A stretch of DNA of 14,578 bases from an uncultured candidate division Zixibacteria bacterium (GCA_937900185.1 CALCCW010000021.1:1-14578), one strand, 5' to 3'; counted from the stretch's first letter, positions 1 to 8,610 are shown. Numbers and translations: made by a program. Notes: generated from the sequence alone by a model not told the origin.

Positions 1-14
1 CGCTCTTCAGATCT
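1..14. other. Probable Illumina adapter remnant at the contig 5' end. The sequence CGCTCTTCaGATCT is the reverse complement of AGATCGGAAGAGCG with 1 mismatch.
   Basis: Direct read of the first 14 nt. It matches the TruSeq adapter 3' end apart from one base. It mirrors the perfect adapter found at the 3' end of the window. Confidence 0.5.
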
Positions 15-892
15 AGCCCCGAAGTATCGGCATTATCTATGATTTCAAAAGAAGCCAAAAGTGATTTAACTGAATCAGCCAAACTGTCAATTATCATAAT
101 TGTAGTGTCAGAGTAAAAAGCAGTAAGAGGTATACTAAGATGACATCCGGTTACATTACATGTTGCAAAGTATTGTTGTGATGTGTTTTTATCTTCTAAC
201 CTGAATGTATGTTCGGCAAATATATATCCCTGTCCTGCTCCAAAACCACTACCATAATGACATTTTATACATCCATTTGTTGTATGGGGATTTGCTTCAG
301 GGGCTTCTATATTTATAAAATATCCATTTCTTCCGCTGATAACATCAGCTTGAGGTGATACATGAGGACCAAAATTTTCATCCAAAATTATAGTACTGCC
401 GCTGCCGACATCTTGGGTTGCTGAATGACAATGAGCACAAGAATTTGAAAGCCCTAAATTTGCTCCTAAACCGCTTACAAAACCTATCGTACCGCCGGCT
501 CGCAATGTATCCAAATTCCAAGCACCATATTCTCCGGTATGAGGAAGATGACAGGTAAAACAATTTATTGCTGAATATGCTTTTATTGATGTAATAGACG
601 AATCCACAATCTTTAAGAATCCTTCGTGGGTATGACATTTTGTACAAGAAACATCCATAATATCTAAATCTAAAAGAGCATAATTGGCATGAGCAGAATT
701 ATCAAACTGACCCCTCGGGCGAAGCAAAAGGTTATCTGTGTCATTGTGACAGTCAAAACAACCAACCCCCAAGGTTGAATCAGTCATGATAATCGTATTA
801 TTCTCAGTTACTAAAGTGTCACAACCTACTTGCAGCATAATTGCGATAAATGTCATAAGTATTATAAACGGGGTAATTTTACGAAAATTCAT
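2..892 (-). CDS. Multihaem c-type cytochrome, 3'-truncated at the window edge. The N-terminus carries a signal peptide and a possible lipobox.
   Basis: Manual reverse-complement translation from ATG (rc) at 890-892 begins MNFRKITPFIILMTFIAIMLQVGC. No minus-strand stop (tta/cta/tca) occurs in this frame down to nt 2, so the ORF runs off the window. This explains its absence from the ORF track. Five canonical CxxCH haem-binding motifs are present: CFDCH, CTKCH, CFTCH, CAHCH and CIKCH. There is one CX4CH motif (CNVTGCH). The track ORF 378..647 is an out-of-frame shadow of this gene. Confidence 0.8.
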   Translation of the reverse strand, partial: MNFRKITPFIILMTFIAIMLQVGCDTLVTENNTIIMTDSTLGVGCFDCHNDTDNLLLRPRGQFDNSAHANYALLDLDIMDVSCTKCHTHEGFLKIVDSSITSIKAYSAINCFTCHLPHTGEYGAWNLDTLRAGGTIGFVSGLGANLGLSNSCAHCHSATQDVGSGSTIILDENFGPHVSPQADVISGRNGYFINIEAPEANPHTTNGCIKCHYGSGFGAGQGYIFAEHTFRLEDKNTSQQYFATCNVTGCHLSIPLTAFYSDTTIMIIDSLADSVKSLLASFEIIDNADTSGLDLKS

Positions 893-1130: not shown

Positions 1131-1192
1131 AAGAAATGAGAAAAAATGCCGAAAATAAAAGAAAAATATGAAATTGAATAGAGGAGACTATT

Positions 1193-2317
1193 ATGTCATT
1201 ATTATTAGAAGTAATTGAATGGATGGACCCATCCGGCGATGAAATGATTTACCGTATTCCGCAGGAAGGTTCTGCCGATTTTAAGTTAGGTGCTCAACTT
1301 ATAGTACGAGATAGTCAAATGGCTTTCTTTTTCAAAGATGGGCATGCTGCCGATACATTTACGACCGGACGGCATACGCTTTCGACATTAAACGTTCCCA
1401 TTTTGACCAGATTACTGGCTTTCCCATTTGGTTTTAATTCACCATTTCGTGCAGAATGTTATTTTATAAATTTAAAAACGTACACCGATATGAAATGGGG
1501 TACAAAAAATCCGGTTACATTTAAAGACAGTAAACTTGGTTTGATTCGTTTGCGTGGTCATGGTGCTTTTACAATGAAAATTAAAGAACCGATTCTATTT
1601 TTAAATTCTATTGTTGGTCGTCAAGCAAAATTTACAACTTCTGAAATTCAAGATTATCTTCGTGATGTTATTATCGCACGTATGAATGATATGCTTGGTG
1701 AGAAACTCGATACGATTTTAGATCTCCCGTCAATCTATACCGAACTTGCCGAAGATTTTAAAGAATTAGTCAGCTCTGAATTTGAAAAATATGGTTTAGA
1801 ACTTGTAGATTTTTATATCTCTTCAATCACTCCTCCTGAAGAAGTAACCAAAATGATTGACCAGCGTTCCGGTATGGAAGCTGTTGGCGATTTAGATAAG
1901 TTCCTCAAATTTGAACTGGCTAAAGGGTTTGGAGGCACAAGTGGCTCAGGTTCTGCCGGAGCAAATATGGGGATGGCAGCCGGTATTGGTATGATGGTAC
2001 CTTCTATGATGCAAAAAGTATATTCACCGGATCAAACCGAATTAAAACGTGAACCGGTTGCTACTGTTACCTGTCCAAAATGTCATACCGACACACCCGA
2101 ACAGTCTCGTTTTTGTTACCGATGCGGTCATCAGATGATTGTACAAAATATCTGTCCTGCCTGTCAGAGTTCACTTCCGTCAGAAGCAAAATTCTGCTTT
2201 GAATGCGGTTTGAAGCTTGATGTGAAAACAACCTGTCCGCATTGTTCGGCTGAACTAATTGCAGGTTCCAAATTTTGCGGCGAATGTGGTAAGAATATAG
2301 ATGGCGATAATAGCTAA
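1193..2317 (+). CDS. SPFH/band-7-like protein of the YdjI/COG4260 type with a Gly/Met-rich linker and three tandem C-terminal zinc ribbons (zinc_ribbon_2-like)
   Basis: A strong RBS (AGAGGAG) sits 7 nt upstream of the ATG. The N-terminal ~240 aa ([21 protein letters not shown]...[17 protein letters not shown]...[14 protein letters not shown]...) resemble the COG4260 family of SPFH-domain proteins with a C-terminal Zn-ribbon, recalled from memory. [25 protein letters not shown] linker follows. The C-terminus has three ~28-aa repeats, each CPxC-x9-FCxxCG. The family assignment is from memory, not a search. Confidence 0.65.
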
Positions 2318-3701
2318 AAAAGAAATAAAAGGATTCCGTATCGGTGTCAGCTGCCCCGGATGCGGGGGAGAACTGGAACTTGAGGATAATTTTTTTGCTG
2401 TTGAGTGTCATCATTGCGGTTCTGCTCTTAGGCTAATAATGCCCGATGCTCCGCCTACTTTTGTTGCCGAAGTACAAATTACAAAACAGAAAGCCAGATA
2501 TGCGATTGACCGGTATCTCAAAGATGCCGGTAAACCGCTTACGCATTCAGATTATCAACTCAAACGGATGTATTACCCTTACTGGAAAGTTGATGCGATA
2601 CTTTTTCGACTCAGAAAGGGTGTTGAAAAAAAAGTTGTATCTTCTGAGTATTCTGATGATAATGAAAAAACGTACGAAACAGAAAAAATTGATATTTCTC
2701 TTTCACCGTACACTACAACACTTACTGCCGGAATGAACTATGACGGACTGCCTGATACTTTGGGGCTTCGCTCTGAATATCTCAAACTTTTCCCTTTATC
2801 TGATGAAAAAATTGACGAGAACTTTGATTTGCTGCCTATTATAAAATCATGGGAAGAAGTCAGAAAATCTCTCCATCAACATTTGGGAGCGATAAGCTCA
2901 TTTGATACAAATCTCTTTGGAGTAAATAAAACTGATATCTATGGACCTAAAGCAATGCTTCTGTATTTTCCATTTTTTCTTTTTGATTTTTATGATACCG
3001 ATGGATTTAATCGTTTTGTTATAGATGGTGTTACCGGTCGAGTGTTAAATCATATTACTTCTTTGGAGTTAGCCCCATCGGAGACATCTGAAACAGAAAA
3101 AATCACTTTGGGCGAAATATCTATTGTCTCACATCGATGCAGCAACTGCGGAGAAGATTTACCGTCGGAAGAATCATTGGTGTACATCTGTAAAAACTGT
3201 CAGGTTATAACAGATTTAGAACCCGGCGTTGAAATAGACACAATTCGGCAAGTAGTGCATCCGGTCAATCCTAATAACATCTTGGTACCATTTTGGGCAT
3301 TTAAAATAAAAGATATTGATGAATCTGTGTTAAAATCTATTTTTGGCGGTATATATCGGTCTGACAAAGTAGTTATTCCGGCTTTTCGGGTTCAAAACTA
3401 TAATGCTATTTTTAAACTAAGCAAAAGAATGTCCGCTGCCTTTCCTCAATTTGATTTTGAAAATATAATCACTATGGATAGACAATATGCTCCGGTGGAT
3501 TTACCGTTAAACGAAGCTCAGGTACTTACCGAAGTATTTGTAACAACCGATCAATATAAAAAAAATATCACTCATAAAAAGACAGAAAATCATTTTCAAT
3601 TTGATGATATAACTCTTTTTTATGCTCCCTTTCATTTGGAAAGTTATTTCTATGTCGATTCAGTTTTGCAGGCAGTAACTTTTGAAAAAAACCTCATTTA
3701 A
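2301..3701 (+). CDS. Internally duplicated zinc-ribbon protein of unknown function, translationally coupled to the upstream SPFH-like gene
   Basis: The start overlaps the upstream stop by 17 nt (ATGGCGATAATAGCTAA). An N-terminal CPGCGG-x15-CHHCG ribbon opens the first half. A second ribbon, CSNCG-x12-CKNC (residues ~280-300), opens a second half. The halves share hydrophobic motifs: [12 protein letters not shown] vs [12 protein letters not shown], and [16 protein letters not shown] vs [17 protein letters not shown]. There is no obvious TM helix and no recognised catalytic motif. Confidence 0.6.
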
Positions 3702-4070
3702 TATTCCTCTGACTTAGTAAACAAAACAGACGATAATTTTAGTTTTCAAATTGAGCCGTCAGGAACCCATTCCTGACATGAATTGTAGAGAACAGGCATG
3801 CCTCAACCCTACAAAAATAAGCTGAACAGCAGAAAATTTGGAACTAATTGCCTCCTATGTAGTAGAATTCACAACATCCCAAAACTGCCATTTATTTCAC
3901 TTGCGATTGCACTTGCAATTACCTATTTTTGAGCGTGTAAAAATGAATTTTAAGGATAAAAAATAATTATTAATATACCGTATTCCATCTTTTTAACTAT
4001 TTCTCCAAGTCATACTGAATTTGTTGAAGTATGTTCATGTTAAATACGGTATTTTTATATGGAGTGAAGA

Positions 4071-6704
4071 GTGTACAGATATTACAAACTATTGTTACTC
4101 ATCGTAACCGTTTTTCTTTATCTGCCGGTAGTCGGGTTTGCCGATATACCGGAATTTTTTGACCAACCCGATTCTGGCTATACAACCAATGTTGTGACAG
4201 ATATTATTACTCACGATAGTGCCATCTGGTTTGCCACCGATGAAGGGTTGAACTTTTCTTATGACGGCGGACAATCCTGGTTGTTATATGATAACAGTAA
4301 CGGATTAGTCTCCTCATCTATTTCAGCTTTATTTTCATTGCCATCTCGGTTTGGACAAAGAATTTGGGCAGCAACCAACCATCAGGAAAATATCGGAGGA
4401 GTCATTACCGGAATTTCCGATGGTGTTTCATACTCAGACGACAGCGGTCTCACATGGACTCAGGTTGATTTTGAGACTGCTCCAAATGACATTCCTTATG
4501 TATGGGGTGGAGACAGAACTATTTTTGATATTACCGGTCATTATGACCCAAACAATGACTCCTTGGACAATTGGGTGTTCTTTACTGCTTTTGCAGGCGG
4601 CTTTTTAGCCTCGCGTGACGGCGGTGAAAGTTGGAAACGAATTTTTCCTACCGTTGCAGATTCTATTCAATTTGAGGTTCCTAATGCTCAACCGTCTTTA
4701 CGAAATAGATACTTCTCCTGTGTTGCCGATACATCGCATGGCGATACTCTTATAGTATGGGCTGGGACTGCCGGCGGTATTTTTCAATATGTTTTTGCAG
4801 AACCCAAAGATAAACCGTTTACCAAACATGTGACCGATATAGAATTTTGTGACAGTTGTGGAACAGGAGATTCAAGTTTTGTTTATTATGGCGGATTAGA
4901 AGGATTTACTCGTGGTAATAAATTAACCGGTCTTGCTGTCAGTAAATTTATATCAGATGGTCTACTGGGAAGTCAAATAACATCAATGCTTGATTTTGGC
5001 GGTAAACTTTTCGTTGGTACTGCAGCTAGTGCTGATGACTACACTTCAAAAGGTCTTGCTGTTTCAACAGACTTTGGTGAGAGCTTTACTGCCACATATA
5101 ATCAACCTGCTTTTGAAGGTGCCGGACATAGAATTTCAGATTTTGCGGTTATGAATGACCGAATATATATGGCTCTTGAAGAAAATGGTTTGTATGTTTC
5201 CAATGACACCGGAGCGAACTGGAACTATGTTATAATAGACACCCTTGATACTACTCCTGACAATCGCCGTAATGTTGTAAATGCTTTAGAAGCTGTCGGA
5301 GACACTCTCAACATTGGTACCGACTCCGGGTTGGTCAGGCTGTATCTTTCCGCATCGGGAGCAGTCGACTCCTCACTGCAATTTGTTTTCCCAAGCAATT
5401 CAACATCCTCAACAAAAATTATCAAGGTAAAAACTCAACCATTAAGTAATGGTGATGTCAGGTTATGGACAGTCAATGTTCCTCTTGATACCGTACTTAA
5501 TCTTGCTACTGCTATAACATCATATTCACTTGACGGAGGTCAAACATTCCTGCCGCGATTTAATGTAAACGGACTTAACAGAAACATTGGTTTTATTGGT
5601 GATACAGCAGTTATCATTGGTGACTACGGTACGGTATATACAGATATCGGCGGTGTTTTGCCGTCAGAATCATTCCCGATATATCAAAAAGTTCCTCTTT
5701 CTGTAGATACTTTAACTAACGATACAACTTTTGTCGTTCTTGATTCACTAAATGCCGATTCGTTAACTTCTATAAAAATAAAAGGTGATACTGTAATTGT
5801 CGGTGGCAACAAAGGCTATGCTGTTTCTTTAGACAGAGGTAGCTCTTTTAATATTACCAGAGTAAATACAGAGTTTCTTGCTGCTGATTTTGTATTGAAT
5901 TATACATCTGCCATTCAAGGTATTGACGGTGATTGGGTTCCTGCTTTGGAAGTAGAATATAATGATTCATTTGTTTTTGCCCGTGTTTGGGCATCAGTTA
6001 GACCTACCTTTGGTGGTGTTCCGGGTATTTCGGTTAGTTGGGCTGCACCTGTTGTAGATACATTAGGTGATACTTTAAGATATGAAAGATTATGGGGGAG
6101 AGTACATGATGAATTTGCATGGAATTTCGCCCTTGCTTCTGATACTATATTTGCCGCAACAGATAACGGTCTAATATATGGCATAACAGATTCTCTCCTT
6201 TTTGGTGATATTACCTATGATTGGACAACAGTTGAAATGCTTGATTCAACAGGTGCATCGCTTCTATTAGAAGGTACTCCGGTATATGCGGTAGAAGTTG
6301 ATGACAACTATATATGGGCTGGCACAGGTGACAGAACAGTGAGGATTGATCGTTCAGACCTTACATTATCAAAAGCATTTTATGTCGAAGACCCTACTGA
6401 TGAAGTGTACGCCTTTCCAATTCCATTTAGTCATGCTAACTCAAATAGACTTGATTTTCATTTTATTGTAAAACAGCAGGCAGCTATTACTATTGAAATT
6501 TATGATTTTGCCATGCATTTGGTTAAACGTGTTGTAGACAATGTTACCTACGACCCGGGAATCTATCCGACCGCCGGTGCAAGCAGACATGTTTGGGATG
6601 GCTTAAACGGCAAAGGCGATGAGGTCGCTGTCGGGATGTATTACTTTAAAATTATATATTCAACCGGTGAAGTTCACTGGGGTAAAATTGCGGTTATTCC
6701 ATAA
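4071..6704 (+). CDS. Secreted BNR/Asp-box repeat (beta-propeller) protein with a T9SS-type C-terminal sorting domain
   Basis: GTG start with GGAG RBS 6 nt upstream. An upstream in-frame ATG at 4059 is followed immediately by a stop. The signal peptide is VYRYYKLLLLIVTVFLYLPVVGFA. Multiple Asp-box motifs (S-x-D-x-G-x-T/S-W/F) are present: SYDGGQSW, SDDSGLTW, SRDGGESW, STDFGESF, SNDTGANW, SLDGGQTF, SLDRGSSF. The C-terminal ~95 aa (AFPIPFS...ITIEIYDFAMHLV...WDGLNGKGDEVAVGMYYFKIIYSTGEVHWGKIAVIP) match the T9SS type-A / FlgD Ig-like sorting-domain pattern. Confidence 0.8.
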   Translation: MYRYYKLLLLIVTVFLYLPVVGFADIPEFFDQPDSGYTTNVVTDIITHDSAIWFATDEGLNFSYDGGQSWLLYDNSNGLVSSSISALFSLPSRFGQRIWAATNHQENIGGVITGISDGVSYSDDSGLTWTQVDFETAPNDIPYVWGGDRTIFDITGHYDPNNDSLDNWVFFTAFAGGFLASRDGGESWKRIFPTVADSIQFEVPNAQPSLRNRYFSCVADTSHGDTLIVWAGTAGGIFQYVFAEPKDKPFTKHVTDIEFCDSCGTGDSSFVYYGGLEGFTRGNKLTGLAVSKFISDGLLGSQITSMLDFGGKLFVGTAASADDYTSKGLAVSTDFGESFTATYNQPAFEGAGHRISDFAVMNDRIYMALEENGLYVSNDTGANWNYVIIDTLDTTPDNRRNVVNALEAVGDTLNIGTDSGLVRLYLSASGAVDSSLQFVFPSNSTSSTKIIKVKTQPLSNGDVRLWTVNVPLDTVLNLATAITSYSLDGGQTFLPRFNVNGLNRNIGFIGDTAVIIGDYGTVYTDIGGVLPSESFPIYQKVPLSVDTLTNDTTFVVLDSLNADSLTSIKIKGDTVIVGGNKGYAVSLDRGSSFNITRVNTEFLAADFVLNYTSAIQGIDGDWVPALEVEYNDSFVFARVWASVRPTFGGVPGISVSWAAPVVDTLGDTLRYERLWGRVHDEFAWNFALASDTIFAATDNGLIYGITDSLLFGDITYDWTTVEMLDSTGASLLLEGTPVYAVEVDDNYIWAGTGDRTVRIDRSDLTLSKAFYVEDPTDEVYAFPIPFSHANSNRLDFHFIVKQQAAITIEIYDFAMHLVKRVVDNVTYDPGIYPTAGASRHVWDGLNGKGDEVAVGMYYFKIIYSTGEVHWGKIAVIP

Positions 6705-6714
6705 TTAAGGAGAG

Positions 6715-7707
6715 ATGGTAATGAAAAAAATATTATTATTTGCAGTTCTGACATTATTCTGTCTGTCAACATCTCTCTTAGCTGAAGATGGTGATGCAGG
6801 TTATGCCGGCAGTTTTTTACAAGTTCCAATTGGTGCCAGACCGACAGCAATGGGTGGTGCATTTATTTCTATTTCAAATGATGCCTCCGGAAGTTTTTAT
6901 AATCCTGCCGGGATGTCTATAATCAAAAAATCAATTTTTGCTACTTCTTATAGAGCTATGCAGCTTGATAGAAAACTTGGATACACGGCGATTCTATTTC
7001 CGACTCAAGGAAATTCAGTTCTTGGATTTAGCTGGCTTTATGCCGGTTCGGGATCAGTAGATGCTCGAAATGATGATGGTGATTTATTAGGGAATACGTT
7101 AGAACAAAATAATCACCAAATTTCTATTCTGTTCTCAAAAAGATTTGAAAAATATTTATCTTTAGGATTTAAAGGTTCTTATTTGTACTCTAAGTTTGCT
7201 GAAATGTCTGTCTTTTCTGTTGGTATTGATTTAGGAGCAACTTTATATATAAGCCGGTTGTTCAGCAGAGAAAAAAGAGATTTAATGTCTATTCAGGATA
7301 TACAAGTTGGGCTTGTCGTGAGAAATTTAGCAGCTAATTTTAAGTGGAATAATGATAATTATTTGGCTGCACATAGCGGATCTGCTTTTGGAGGTTCTGA
7401 TCATATTGATGATTTCCCTGTAGAAATCGGCATTGGCGGTTCAGCAAGATTTTTTAATAGAAAACTTTTATTGAGTTCAGATATTGTGAAAAACAGCAAA
7501 GAAAATATTATTCTACATGCCGGAGGAGAATATTTTATTACCAAACAATTTGCTGCTCGTGTAGGATATACCGATAGAAGCTTGACTACCGGATTTGGCT
7601 ATGTTTTTAATTTAGATAAATTTGGCTTAGTGTTTGACTATGCCTATTCATCAGAAAAAGTTGGTGAAGGTTCGGAACATATATTTTCATTTGACATATT
7701 ATTTTAA
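6715..7707 (+). CDS. Outer-membrane beta-barrel protein of the FadL-like PorV/PorQ family, probably T9SS-associated
   Basis: AAGGAG RBS. The signal peptide is MVMKKILLFAVLTLFCLSTSLLA. The N-terminal motif IGARPTAMGGAFISISNDASGSFYNPAGM matches the FadL/PorV-family signature (GLGRAYSGEGA.ADDAS....NPA). The protein ends in Phe (FDILF), as is typical of OM barrels. It lies immediately downstream of the T9SS cargo gene. Confidence 0.6.
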   Translation: MVMKKILLFAVLTLFCLSTSLLAEDGDAGYAGSFLQVPIGARPTAMGGAFISISNDASGSFYNPAGMSIIKKSIFATSYRAMQLDRKLGYTAILFPTQGNSVLGFSWLYAGSGSVDARNDDGDLLGNTLEQNNHQISILFSKRFEKYLSLGFKGSYLYSKFAEMSVFSVGIDLGATLYISRLFSREKRDLMSIQDIQVGLVVRNLAANFKWNNDNYLAAHSGSAFGGSDHIDDFPVEIGIGGSARFFNRKLLLSSDIVKNSKENIILHAGGEYFITKQFAARVGYTDRSLTTGFGYVFNLDKFGLVFDYAYSSEKVGEGSEHIFSFDILF

Positions 7708-7716
7708 AGGTGAAAA

Positions 7717-8610
7717 ATGAATAATTTGAAAATTGCAATTCTCATTGTGACTCTCCTGTCAGTCGGTCAGATTTCTGCCCAAGATGGGTTAGCCTTGCTG
7801 CAGACAGCACAAGGTGCTAAACAAGCAGGGTTTGGAGAGGCTGTTGTATCTCTTGCAAACCAAGTAAATGGGACCCATTATAATCCTGCCAATATGATAT
7901 CTATTGACAAGTTTACCGCATCGTTTGGACATACTGAATACTGGGAAAATATTAATTTAGAGTCAGGTTTTTTTGCCGCTCCTCTTACATCTAAAGTAAA
8001 TCTACATGGCGGTATCCGTTTTGCCGCTGTGAATGAACTGGAAAATAGAACTCGTGCTACCGAAGAACCTATTAGTTTATTTGACTTTCATGATATATCT
8101 TTCAAAACAGGACTTACGTATGTTAAGAGTGAAAAACTCTCTTTTGGTTTTGCTTTTGGATGGTTTTTTGAAAAAAATGAACTTTGGAACGGTTCTGCTT
8201 TTAATGTCGATTTAGGAATGCATTATCAAGCATCTCCAAACATTCAACTTGGGGCTGCTGTGACAAATCTTGGTTCCTCGTTTCAATTGACAGCTGATGG
8301 TCAAGAAAGTTCTAACGATATTTCTCTTCCCACAAGGTATTCCGTCGGCGGCAGCTATCAATATAATAAATTTATCGGAGCAATTGATGCTGTAATTATC
8401 AACGATGATTTTAAACTGCATGTTGGTACAGAAGCACATTTGCATGAGATGTTTGACGTTCGTGCCGGATATATGTTTAACTATGACAGTAAGGATTTTT
8501 CTGTCGGGGCAACTTTTACAAAACGAAATATTAAAATAGATTATGCATTTGTACCGTATTCTAATAATTTAGGATCGACACATCTGTTTAATTTCACATT
8601 CAGCATATAA
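7717..8610 (+). CDS. Second FadL-like PorV/PorQ-family outer-membrane beta-barrel protein, a paralog of the upstream gene
   Basis: AAAGGTGA RBS. The signal peptide is MNNLKIAILIVTLLSVGQISAQ. The N-terminal motif QGAKQAGFGEAVVSLANQVNGTHYNPANM and the C-terminal region (DVRAGYMFNYD...DYAFVPYS) parallel the upstream protein. The gap to the previous gene is 9 nt. Confidence 0.55.
   Translation: MNNLKIAILIVTLLSVGQISAQDGLALLQTAQGAKQAGFGEAVVSLANQVNGTHYNPANMISIDKFTASFGHTEYWENINLESGFFAAPLTSKVNLHGGIRFAAVNELENRTRATEEPISLFDFHDISFKTGLTYVKSEKLSFGFAFGWFFEKNELWNGSAFNVDLGMHYQASPNIQLGAAVTNLGSSFQLTADGQESSNDISLPTRYSVGGSYQYNKFIGAIDAVIINDDFKLHVGTEAHLHEMFDVRAGYMFNYDSKDFSVGATFTKRNIKIDYAFVPYSNNLGSTHLFNFTFSI

What the first reader, a model, noticed from the sequence alone, without database searches (positions are those of the whole stretch)
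1193..3701. Translationally coupled two-gene cassette: SPFH (YdjI/COG4260-like) protein with a triple zinc-ribbon tail, plus a duplicated zinc-ribbon partner and no PspA or NfeD
Gene 1 looks like the COG4260 / B. subtilis YdjI-type SPFH (band-7) protein. In Bacillus this type sits in the pspA-ydjGHI membrane-stress locus. Gene 2 overlaps gene 1 by 17 nt (ATGGCGATAATAGCTAA), so it is presumably made stoichiometrically with it. Gene 2 is a 466-aa soluble protein made of two homologous halves, each opened by a C4 zinc ribbon. Neither a PspA/ESCRT-III gene nor the usual SPFH partner NfeD is adjacent. The cassette is divergent from a multihaem cytochrome gene and upstream of a T9SS cargo operon. 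An SPFH scaffold paired with a zinc-ribbon-rich partner and no known effector is a plausible uncharacterised envelope-stress or membrane-remodelling module. A defence-system role cannot be excluded.
Basis: partly seen in the sequence, partly recalled or inferred. Interest (0 to 1): 0.75.

Follow-up and report, generated by a model that had tools for sequence, protein, structure and literature searches.

The report
SPFH protein with tandem YdjG-like partner
This is a real, tightly linked two-gene unit that pairs a YdjI/SamI-type SPFH (band-7) protein with an anchor-less, doubled relative of Bacillus YdjG/SamG, so it is a stripped-down variant of a known membrane-stress module and not a new kind of system.

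Summary
Gene 1 (1193-2317) is a Band_7_1 SPFH protein with a Gly/Met-rich linker and three C4 zinc ribbons. Gene 2 (2301-3701) overlaps it by 17 nt and has two C4 ribbons and no Pfam family.

The main correction is that gene 2 is not an orphan. Profile-profile comparison shows it is two tandem copies of the cytoplasmic module of B. subtilis YdjG/SamG (zinc ribbon plus YpeB/NTF2-like domain). It lacks YdjG's C-terminal membrane helix.

The linkage is very strong:
- 79 of 79 testable genome loci of the close family have the SPFH gene directly upstream.
- 55 of 56 loci of a clade only about 17-20% identical have it too.
- 69 of 76 loci show a start/stop overlap.
- One locus carries an in-frame fusion of the two genes.
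- Five of six proteobacterial and other plasmid contexts also show Band_7_1 followed by a YdjG-like gene.

PspA, YdjH/TPM and NfeD are absent from all flanks examined. No defence signal was found, and the neighbourhood is housekeeping.

The best reading is a minimal, PspA-independent SamI/SamG-type module. The proteins probably form a complex under the membrane. The complex, its membrane association and its function are inferred, not shown. Novelty: new variant of a known kind.

The parts
1181..1186 (+). Shine-Dalgarno-like GAGGAG, 6 nt before the gene 1 ATG
   Evidence: Read from the sequence. Function not tested.
1193..2317 (+). Gene 1: YdjI/SamI-type SPFH protein, 374 aa
   Evidence: ORF. 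Pfam Band_7_1 E 6.8e-67. BLASTP to B. subtilis YdjI (P0277) E 2e-34 over the full length. 66-90% identical homologues in 79 loci.
1247..1879 (+). SPFH / Band_7_1 domain (aa 19-229)
   Evidence: Pfam PF13421, profile positions 1-210 of 211, 225.6 bits.
1922..2023 (+). Gly/Ser/Met-rich low-complexity linker (aa ~244-277)
   Evidence: Sequence [34 protein letters not shown]. It aligns with the equivalent low-complexity stretch of YdjI, which is described for SamI in bioRxiv 10.64898/2026.02.06.704340.
2060..2293 (+). Three C4 zinc ribbons (aa 290-367)
   Evidence: Pfam DZR E 2.3e-22 with 3 stretches, plus Zn_Ribbon_1 and Zn_ribbon_3. Six CxxC pairs are visible in the translation.
2301..2317 (+). 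17-nt overlap of the gene 1 stop with the gene 2 start
   Evidence: Sequence. 69 of 76 related loci show an inferred overlap of 8-44 nt, always in the same relative frame.
2301..3701 (+). Gene 2: soluble tandem YdjG/SamG-like protein, 466 aa
   Evidence: ORF. 158 homologues found by the word-index search. 971 cluster representatives found by the profile search. AF2 model pLDDT 80.5, pTM 0.78.
2346..3053 (+). N-terminal YdjG-like module (aa 16-251): C4 ribbon (C18..C39, nt 2352-2417) plus an alpha+beta domain carrying the YYPYWK and DGVTGRV motifs
   Evidence: hhalign of the YdjG family against the gene 2 family: 96.6%, E 5.9e-10, YdjG 54-307 aligned to gene 2 16-251. Against the diverse family: 98.0%, E 3e-13. 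Against half 1 alone: 98.4%, E 9.4e-15.
3108..3698 (+). C-terminal, more divergent second copy of the module (aa 270-466): C4 ribbon (C280..C300, nt 3138-3200) plus an alpha/beta domain carrying the PFW and FYAPFH..YFYVDS motifs
   Evidence: hhalign half 1 vs half 2: 97.6%, E 2.6e-12; without the ribbons 90.5%. YdjG family vs half 2: 96.0%, E 4.4e-9.

Best explanation
The cassette is a minimal, free-standing version of the B. subtilis ydjG/ydjI (samG/samI) pair.

Gene 1 is a cytoplasmic SPFH protein of the YdjI/SamI type. It has an SPFH domain, a low-complexity linker, and three zinc ribbons where YdjI has one.

Gene 2 is two tandem copies of the module that forms the cytoplasmic part of YdjG/SamG (C4 zinc ribbon plus YpeB/NTF2-like domain). 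It lacks YdjG's membrane helix.

The two proteins are made from overlapping reading frames. They most likely form one complex in which the YdjG-like protein is the obligate adaptor or organiser of the SPFH oligomer on the inner face of the cytoplasmic membrane, acting in membrane surveillance or maintenance.

Shown: the homologies, the architecture, the near-invariant linkage, the conserved overlap, and one natural fusion.

Inferred: the physical interaction, the membrane association (neither protein has a TM segment), and the physiological role. The role is taken by analogy from B. subtilis. There, YdjG and YdjH are needed to localise YdjI, and YdjI recruits PspA and restrains SamGH signalling.
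For: Gene 1:
- Band_7_1 E 6.8e-67 plus three ribbons.
- Full-length similarity to real YdjI.

Gene 2 compared with YdjG taken from the real operon L088:
- Single YdjG sequence vs profile: 94.8%.
- Family vs family: 96.6% and 98.0% over 217-222 collinear columns that include the PFW and (D/N)G.TG+V motifs.
- Reciprocal hmmsearch: the A2 model scores YdjG at 49 bits and the A1 model at 31 bits. Ribbon-only proteins score 8 bits or less.

Linkage:
- 79/79 testable loci.
- 55/56 in a clade about 17-20% identical.
- 4 of 6 further distant members.
- The flanks fall into at least seven different contexts while the pair stays constant.
- Overlap in 69/76 loci.
- An 843-aa in-frame fusion in L060.
- A Band_7_1 gene followed by a YdjG-like gene in Ralstonia, Vibrio, Paracoccus, Comamonas and Novosphingobium replicons.

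Functional analogy comes from PMC8581546 and bioRxiv 10.64898/2026.02.06.704340.
Against: - No experiment exists for this family.
- Neither protein has a membrane anchor. PspA and YdjH are missing from all flanks, so the Bacillus mechanism cannot simply be transferred.
- In the Bacillus two-hybrid data YdjI interacted with YdjH and PspA. No direct YdjI-YdjG contact was reported.
- With the ribbons removed, the YdjG vs half 1 alignment drops to 88% and shifts register. Part of the signal therefore rests on the ribbons and on an internally repetitive helix-hairpin unit.
- The YdjG model was too poor for a structural cross-check (pLDDT 52.7).
- A subgroup of the family (P0207, P0215) is not next to an SPFH gene.
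Confidence: 0.72

Rival explanations
1. The pair is a new stand-alone SPFH scaffold that works without PspA and without any membrane anchor. For example, it could be a soluble or peripherally bound cage whose tandem YdjG-like subunit cross-links SPFH oligomers through ribbon-ribbon contacts. Its client or function would be unrelated to the Bacillus Psp/Sam stress pathway.
For: - No TM segment in either protein.
- No PspA or YdjH within +/-8 kb in 80 loci.
- The partner is duplicated and the SPFH tail triplicated.
- Gene 1 is very strongly conserved, 66-90% identity across the clade. This suggests a core housekeeping job.
Against: Whole genomes were not searched, so PspA or an anchor may be encoded elsewhere. 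Homology to YdjG and YdjI makes a related role the economical assumption.
Confidence: 0.2
2. The cassette is an anti-phage defence or abortive-infection module, with an SPFH scaffold plus a zinc-ribbon sensor.
For: SPFH and zinc-ribbon domains do occur in some defence contexts (general knowledge).
Against: - No PADLOC model hits either protein; the best is E 0.022 on a ribbon.
- PHROGs gives ribbon-only hits.
- The neighbours are housekeeping genes: Iso_dh, Ham1, MurI, amidase, SmpB, ETF, Dus.
- There is conserved synteny and high sequence conservation, not the patchy island-like distribution typical of defence genes.
- No nuclease, protease, NTPase or other effector domain is present.
Confidence: 0.04
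3. Gene 2 is a nucleic-acid- or ribosome-binding zinc-ribbon protein, as automatic names on some homologues suggest (RpoP, S27E, L37AE, DUF1610). Its adjacency to the SPFH gene would then be incidental.
For: Source names on several homologues. Weak ribbon hits to LysW, eS27, eL24 and RPABC4.
Against: - All such hits cover only the 25-35-residue ribbons and lie below family cut-offs.
- Linkage of 79/79 and 55/56, the conserved overlap and the fusion exclude incidental adjacency.
Confidence: 0.03

Closest known systems
B. subtilis YdjI / SamI (SPFH protein of the sigma-W pspA-ydjGHI = pspA-samGHI operon)
   Same: Band_7_1 SPFH domain, no membrane anchor, Gly/Met-rich low-complexity linker, C-terminal C4 zinc ribbon. 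25% identity over the full length, E 2e-34. Encoded next to a YdjG-type gene.
   Different: Three ribbons where YdjI has one. The gene lies upstream of its partner; in Bacillus it is last in the operon. No pspA or ydjH nearby.
B. subtilis YdjG / SamG (annotated 'TFIIB-type zinc ribbon-containing protein')
   Same: C4 ribbon followed by the same alpha+beta (YpeB/NTF2-like) domain, with PFW and (D/N)G.TG+V motifs. Profile-profile 96.6-98.4%. The order of secondary-structure elements is the same.
   Different: YdjG has two adjacent ribbons, one domain and a C-terminal TM helix (341 aa). Gene 2 has one ribbon per module, two modules and no TM (466 aa). Identity is too low for Pfam or BLAST detection. 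No Pfam family covers the domain.
Proteobacterial Band_7_1 + YdjG-like pairs (Ralstonia GMI1000 megaplasmid, Paracoccus and Comamonas replicons)
   Same: Same gene order: the SPFH gene first, then the zinc-ribbon partner immediately downstream on the same strand, with no PspA.
   Different: The partner keeps its C-terminal TM helix or helices. The SPFH protein carries SHOCT-like, GYF-like or HTH tails in place of zinc ribbons.
SPFH-NfeD pairs (stomatin/QmcA-YbbJ) and HflK/C-FtsH
   Same: An SPFH protein encoded with a dedicated partner.
   Different: No NfeD or protease gene here. This SPFH subfamily lacks the N-terminal membrane anchor.

Membership tests
YdjI/SamI-type SPFH (Pfam Band_7_1, COG4260) | Band_7_1 profile match above the gathering score | tested here: met
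   225.6 bits against a cut-off of 24, full profile coverage.
YdjI/SamI-type SPFH (Pfam Band_7_1, COG4260) | C-terminal zinc ribbon after a low-complexity linker, and no TM anchor | tested here: met
   Three DZR stretches. The linker aligns with that of YdjI. Max KD19 is 1.27, and that window lies inside the SPFH domain.
YdjI/SamI-type SPFH (Pfam Band_7_1, COG4260) | Needs YdjG/YdjH for membrane foci and recruits PspA | not testable with these tools
   Experimental property (PMC8581546).
YdjG/SamG family | Zinc ribbon(s) followed by the YpeB-related NTF2-like domain | tested here: met
YdjG/SamG family | C-terminal transmembrane helix | tested here: not met
   After the DGVTGRV motif gene 2 continues into a second ribbon and domain. 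No hydrophobic window reaches 1.0. In the 220 full-length family members hydrophobic peaks are rare and not at a fixed position.
YdjG/SamG family | Encoded beside a Band_7_1 gene | tested here: met
   79/79 and 55/56 loci.
PspA-centred Psp system (pspA-ydjGHI type) | A PspA/IM30 gene and a YdjH (TPM) gene in the operon | tested here: not met
   No Pfam PspA_IM30 or TPM hit in the window ORFs. No tblastn hit of B. subtilis PspA or YdjH at E<=1 in the window or in 160 related loci. Whole genomes were not searched.
SPFH-NfeD operon | An adjacent NfeD gene | tested here: not met
   No NfeD among the Pfam hits of the window ORFs.
Known anti-phage defence systems (PADLOC-DB) | A match to a defence-protein model | tested here: not met
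   Zero families for gene 1. Only ribbon-level hits at E 0.02-0.07 for gene 2.

The most novel reading that the evidence does not exclude
The conserved core of the Bacillus Sam/Psp module is not PspA but the SPFH + YdjG-like pair. This pair would be ancient and widespread across Zixibacteria/Calditrichota, a large soil clade, Proteobacteria and Firmicutes. In the Zixibacteria-type lineage it has become a fully soluble, self-sufficient complex: a triple-ribbon SPFH protein plus a duplicated, anchor-less YdjG. That complex would work without PspA, YdjH or any integral membrane partner, which implies an SPFH function not tied to membrane insertion.
Probability: 0.25. Interest if true: 0.6.

Novelty: new variant of a known kind. 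Interest (0 to 1): 0.48.

Why it matters
The role of YdjI/SamI-type SPFH proteins is only beginning to be worked out, and so far only in B. subtilis, where they are viewed through PspA.

This cassette shows three things. First, the SPFH protein and a YdjG-like zinc-ribbon protein form a deeply conserved pair far outside Firmicutes. Second, the pair persists without PspA or YdjH nearby. Third, the partner can lose its membrane anchor and duplicate.

This points to the SPFH-YdjG contact as the core of the system. It gives a previously unannotated family (no Pfam; about 970 cluster representatives) a testable assignment. It also identifies tractable proteobacterial versions in which the pair could be studied.

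Tried and rejected
- BLASTP of the two halves of gene 2 found nothing. hhalign with the shallow A1 profile aligned only the ribbon. The duplication became visible only with the diverse A2 profile.
- NCBIfam, PADLOC and PHROGs gave only ribbon-level or no hits.
- PDB sequence searches for gene 2 (profile) and gene 1 found no relative with a solved structure.
- The A2 alignment was too diverse for a metagenome scan. I replaced it with the A4 sub-clade.
- The AF2 model of YdjG from a shallow alignment was poor (pLDDT 52.7).
- The sigma-70 promoter and terminator scan was at background level and uninformative.
- A literature search for COG4260 and Band_7_1 found nothing specific.
- I considered and rejected three readings of the cassette: a translation/RNA-binding ribbon protein, a defence system, and incidental adjacency.

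Full report
**1. The observation**

The window holds two same-strand ORFs, 1193..2317 (374 aa) and 2301..3701 (466 aa). The ATG of gene 2 lies 17 nt before the end of the gene 1 stop codon; the shared stretch is ATGGCGATAATAGCTAA at 2301-2317.

Gene 1 matches Pfam Band_7_1 over the whole profile (E 6.8e-67, aa 19-229). It ends in three double-CxxC zinc ribbons at aa 290-367, which give three DZR stretches. A Gly/Ser/Met-rich linker lies between the two parts.

Gene 2 reaches no curated cut-off in Pfam, NCBIfam, PADLOC or PHROGs. Only its two C4 ribbons, at aa 18-39 and 280-300, give weak hits.

Neither protein has a TM-grade hydrophobic stretch.

The rest of the window is housekeeping: Iso_dh, Ham1, glutamate racemase, Amidase_3, SmpB and a response regulator. 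It also holds a divergent c-type cytochrome with five CxxCH motifs, and a BNR/FlgD_ig-like protein followed by two FadL/PorV-like barrels. There is no PspA, TPM or NfeD.

**2. Gene 2 belongs to a real, well-conserved, unannotated family**

A word-index search of 5.8 billion proteins found 158 homologues. Nearly all are 460-525 aa. Where a source names the organism, it is Zixibacteria or Calditrichaeota.

In a 49-sequence alignment all eight ribbon cysteines are invariant. So are the motifs YYPYWK, FG.N.T, YFPY, DG.TGR, HRC..CG.DLP, PFW and F..PFH.E.YFYVDS.

A profile search of 1.84 billion cluster representatives found 971 proteins at E<=1e-3 and 108 at E<=1e-30. These include full-length members only about 17-25% identical to the window protein.

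AlphaFold2 with this alignment gave a confident model (pLDDT 80.5, pTM 0.78).

**3. The linkage to the SPFH gene is close to absolute**

- A scan of one genome per species returned 119 relatives, of which 80 loci were fetched. In 79 of them a gene 1 homologue (66-90% identical) ends at or just before the gene 2 start on the same strand. The only exception has just 96 nt of upstream sequence.
- The pair is constant while the flanks fall into at least seven unrelated contexts.
- In 69 of 76 evaluable loci the inferred gene 2 start overlaps the gene 1 stop by 8-44 nt, always in the same relative frame.
- In one locus (L060) the two genes are fused in frame into an 843-aa ORF. This is either a natural fusion or an assembly indel.
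- Six more distant members were looked up individually. Four lie directly downstream of a Band_7_1 + DZR gene. Two, including one from a Deltaproteobacteria MAG, do not.
- A metagenome scan with the most distant sub-clade (A4) gave 80 loci. Of the 56 with at least 700 nt upstream, 55 carry a gene 1 homologue (~50% identical) immediately upstream.

Incidental adjacency is excluded.

**4. What gene 2 is**

The literature on the Bacillus pspA-ydjGHI (samGHI) operon describes three relevant proteins. YdjI/SamI is a cytosolic SPFH protein with a low-complexity linker and a C-terminal zinc finger. YdjG is a membrane protein with zinc ribbons. YdjH is a TPM-domain membrane protein (PMC8581546, PMC9239133, bioRxiv 10.64898/2026.02.06.704340). 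[quoted passage not shown]

I retrieved the real operon from a B. subtilis chromosome (L088) and compared sequences:

| Comparison | Probability | E-value | Extent |
|---|---|---|---|
| YdjG single sequence vs gene 2 profile (A1) | 94.8% | 5e-8 | 147 columns |
| 20-sequence YdjG profile vs A1 | 96.6% | 5.9e-10 | 217 collinear columns, YdjG 54-307 to gene 2 16-251 |
| YdjG profile vs diverse family profile (A2) | 98.0% | 3e-13 | 222 columns |
| YdjG profile vs N-terminal half alone | 98.4% | 9.4e-15 | 234 columns |
| YdjG profile vs C-terminal half | 96.0% | 4.4e-9 | 216 columns |

The alignments run from YdjG's second ribbon to the NGQTGKVVG motif just before its TM helix. They pair IPFWMFD with YYPYWKVD, and LLPVWMVSYDY..AMNGQTGKV with [21 protein letters not shown].

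As a control, plain hmmsearch scores YdjG at 31-49 bits with the gene 2 models. The ribbon-rich gene 1 proteins score 8 bits or less.

One caveat applies. With the ribbons cut off, the YdjG vs half 1 match falls to 88% and shifts register onto a similar helix-hairpin unit. The AF2 model of YdjG was too poor (pLDDT 52.7) for a structural cross-check, although its order of secondary-structure elements agrees.

**5. The internal duplication is real**

With the diverse profile the two halves of gene 2 align at 97.6% (E 2.6e-12, 209 columns). Without either ribbon they still align at 90.5% (E 1.4e-6, 145 columns).

Gene 2 is therefore two YdjG-like modules in tandem. The second module stands where YdjG has its TM helix.

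**6. The pair is general**

tblastn of gene 1 against plasmids and chromids hit 157 records. I inspected six:

- Five have a YdjG-like gene directly or almost directly downstream of the Band_7_1 gene: the Ralstonia GMI1000 megaplasmid, a Vibrio plasmid (where the partner is split), a Paracoccus chromid, and Comamonas and Novosphingobium replicons. NCBI names the Comamonas gene 'TFIIB-type zinc ribbon-containing protein'.
- In these the partner keeps one or two C-terminal TM helices. The SPFH protein carries SHOCT-like, GYF-like or HTH tails in place of ribbons.
- A Bacteroides plasmid has a membrane protein and a ribbon-TPR-like protein instead.

**7. What is absent**

B. subtilis PspA and YdjH gave no tblastn hit at E<=1 in the window, the 80 genome loci or the 80 metagenome loci. 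This covers only about 4-8 kb on each side. Whole genomes were not searched.

**8. Interpretation**

The cassette is a reduced, rearranged member of the YdjI/YdjG (SamI/SamG) kind. It consists of an SPFH protein with a triple ribbon and an anchor-less tandem YdjG-like partner, made from overlapping frames.

The most likely mechanism is a stoichiometric complex in which the YdjG-like protein organises or localises the SPFH oligomer beneath the membrane. Its role would be membrane surveillance or maintenance, by analogy with Bacillus.

The interaction, the membrane association and the physiology are inferred.

Because no component has a TM segment, the Bacillus anchoring logic cannot apply unchanged. 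Three possibilities remain: an unlinked anchor exists, binding is peripheral, or the complex is soluble.

Defence is unlikely. There is no PADLOC hit and no effector domain, the synteny is with housekeeping genes, and sequence conservation is high.

**9. Novelty and score**

Gene 1 is a known type. Gene 2 is a new, unannotated, divergent branch of a known partner family, and its architecture (tandem, no TM) has not been described in the papers I could read.

Two points are of moderate interest to the SPFH/Psp field. The SPFH + YdjG-like pairing is ancient, and it is independent of PspA. Neither overturns the existing picture.

Verdict: new variant of a known kind; interest about 0.48.

Noticed in passing
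L084 4347-4841; L093 2324-2818; 37 of the loci L092-L171: In other clades of the family a conserved ~164-aa all-helical protein sits immediately upstream of the SPFH gene, giving a three-gene order. It has no Pfam family and no TM, and its N-terminus reads MS.AQKLE.L.R..PGV.GYQDKE. It is absent from the window and from all 80 Zixibacteria-type loci. It could be a third component with a PspA-like role.
   Followed up: partly
L060 6852-9383: The gene 1 and gene 2 homologues are fused in frame into one 843-aa ORF. This is either a natural fusion or a 1-nt assembly error in the overlap region.
   Followed up: partly
window 2-883 (- strand): A divergent ORF runs off the window start. It has a lipoprotein-like signal (MNFRKITPFIILMTFIAIMLQVGC) and five CxxCH haem-binding motifs. 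Its Pfam hits to Cytochrome_C7 and MtrC/MtrF-like domains are below cut-off. In most related loci this position is instead occupied by a PKD-repeat-like 509-aa protein.
   Followed up: partly
window 4071-8610: An 877-aa BNR/Asp-box protein with a FlgD_ig-like C-terminus is followed by two ~300-aa FadL/PorV-like beta-barrel genes and by Iso_dh. This block is syntenic in about 30 related loci. One homologue carries a precomputed PorV hit.
   Followed up: no
L001-L080, gene 1 / gene 2 junction: All 69 inferred overlaps have lengths of the form 3n+2 (8, 11, 14 ... 44 nt). Gene 2 therefore always sits in the same reading frame relative to gene 1, and its start lies just after the last CxxCGK of the ribbon tail.
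   Followed up: no
L081 5995-7446; L085 4121-5572: A subgroup of the gene 2 family is not adjacent to any SPFH gene. It includes P0207 from a Deltaproteobacteria MAG chromosome, and P0215. Whether an SPFH partner is encoded elsewhere in those genomes is unknown.
   Followed up: no
window 3760-3779: An 8-bp inverted repeat, GTCAGGAA-CCCA-TTCCTGAC, lies about 60 nt after the gene 2 stop with no T-run after it. It may be a transcript-end hairpin. The terminator scan did not call it.
   Followed up: no
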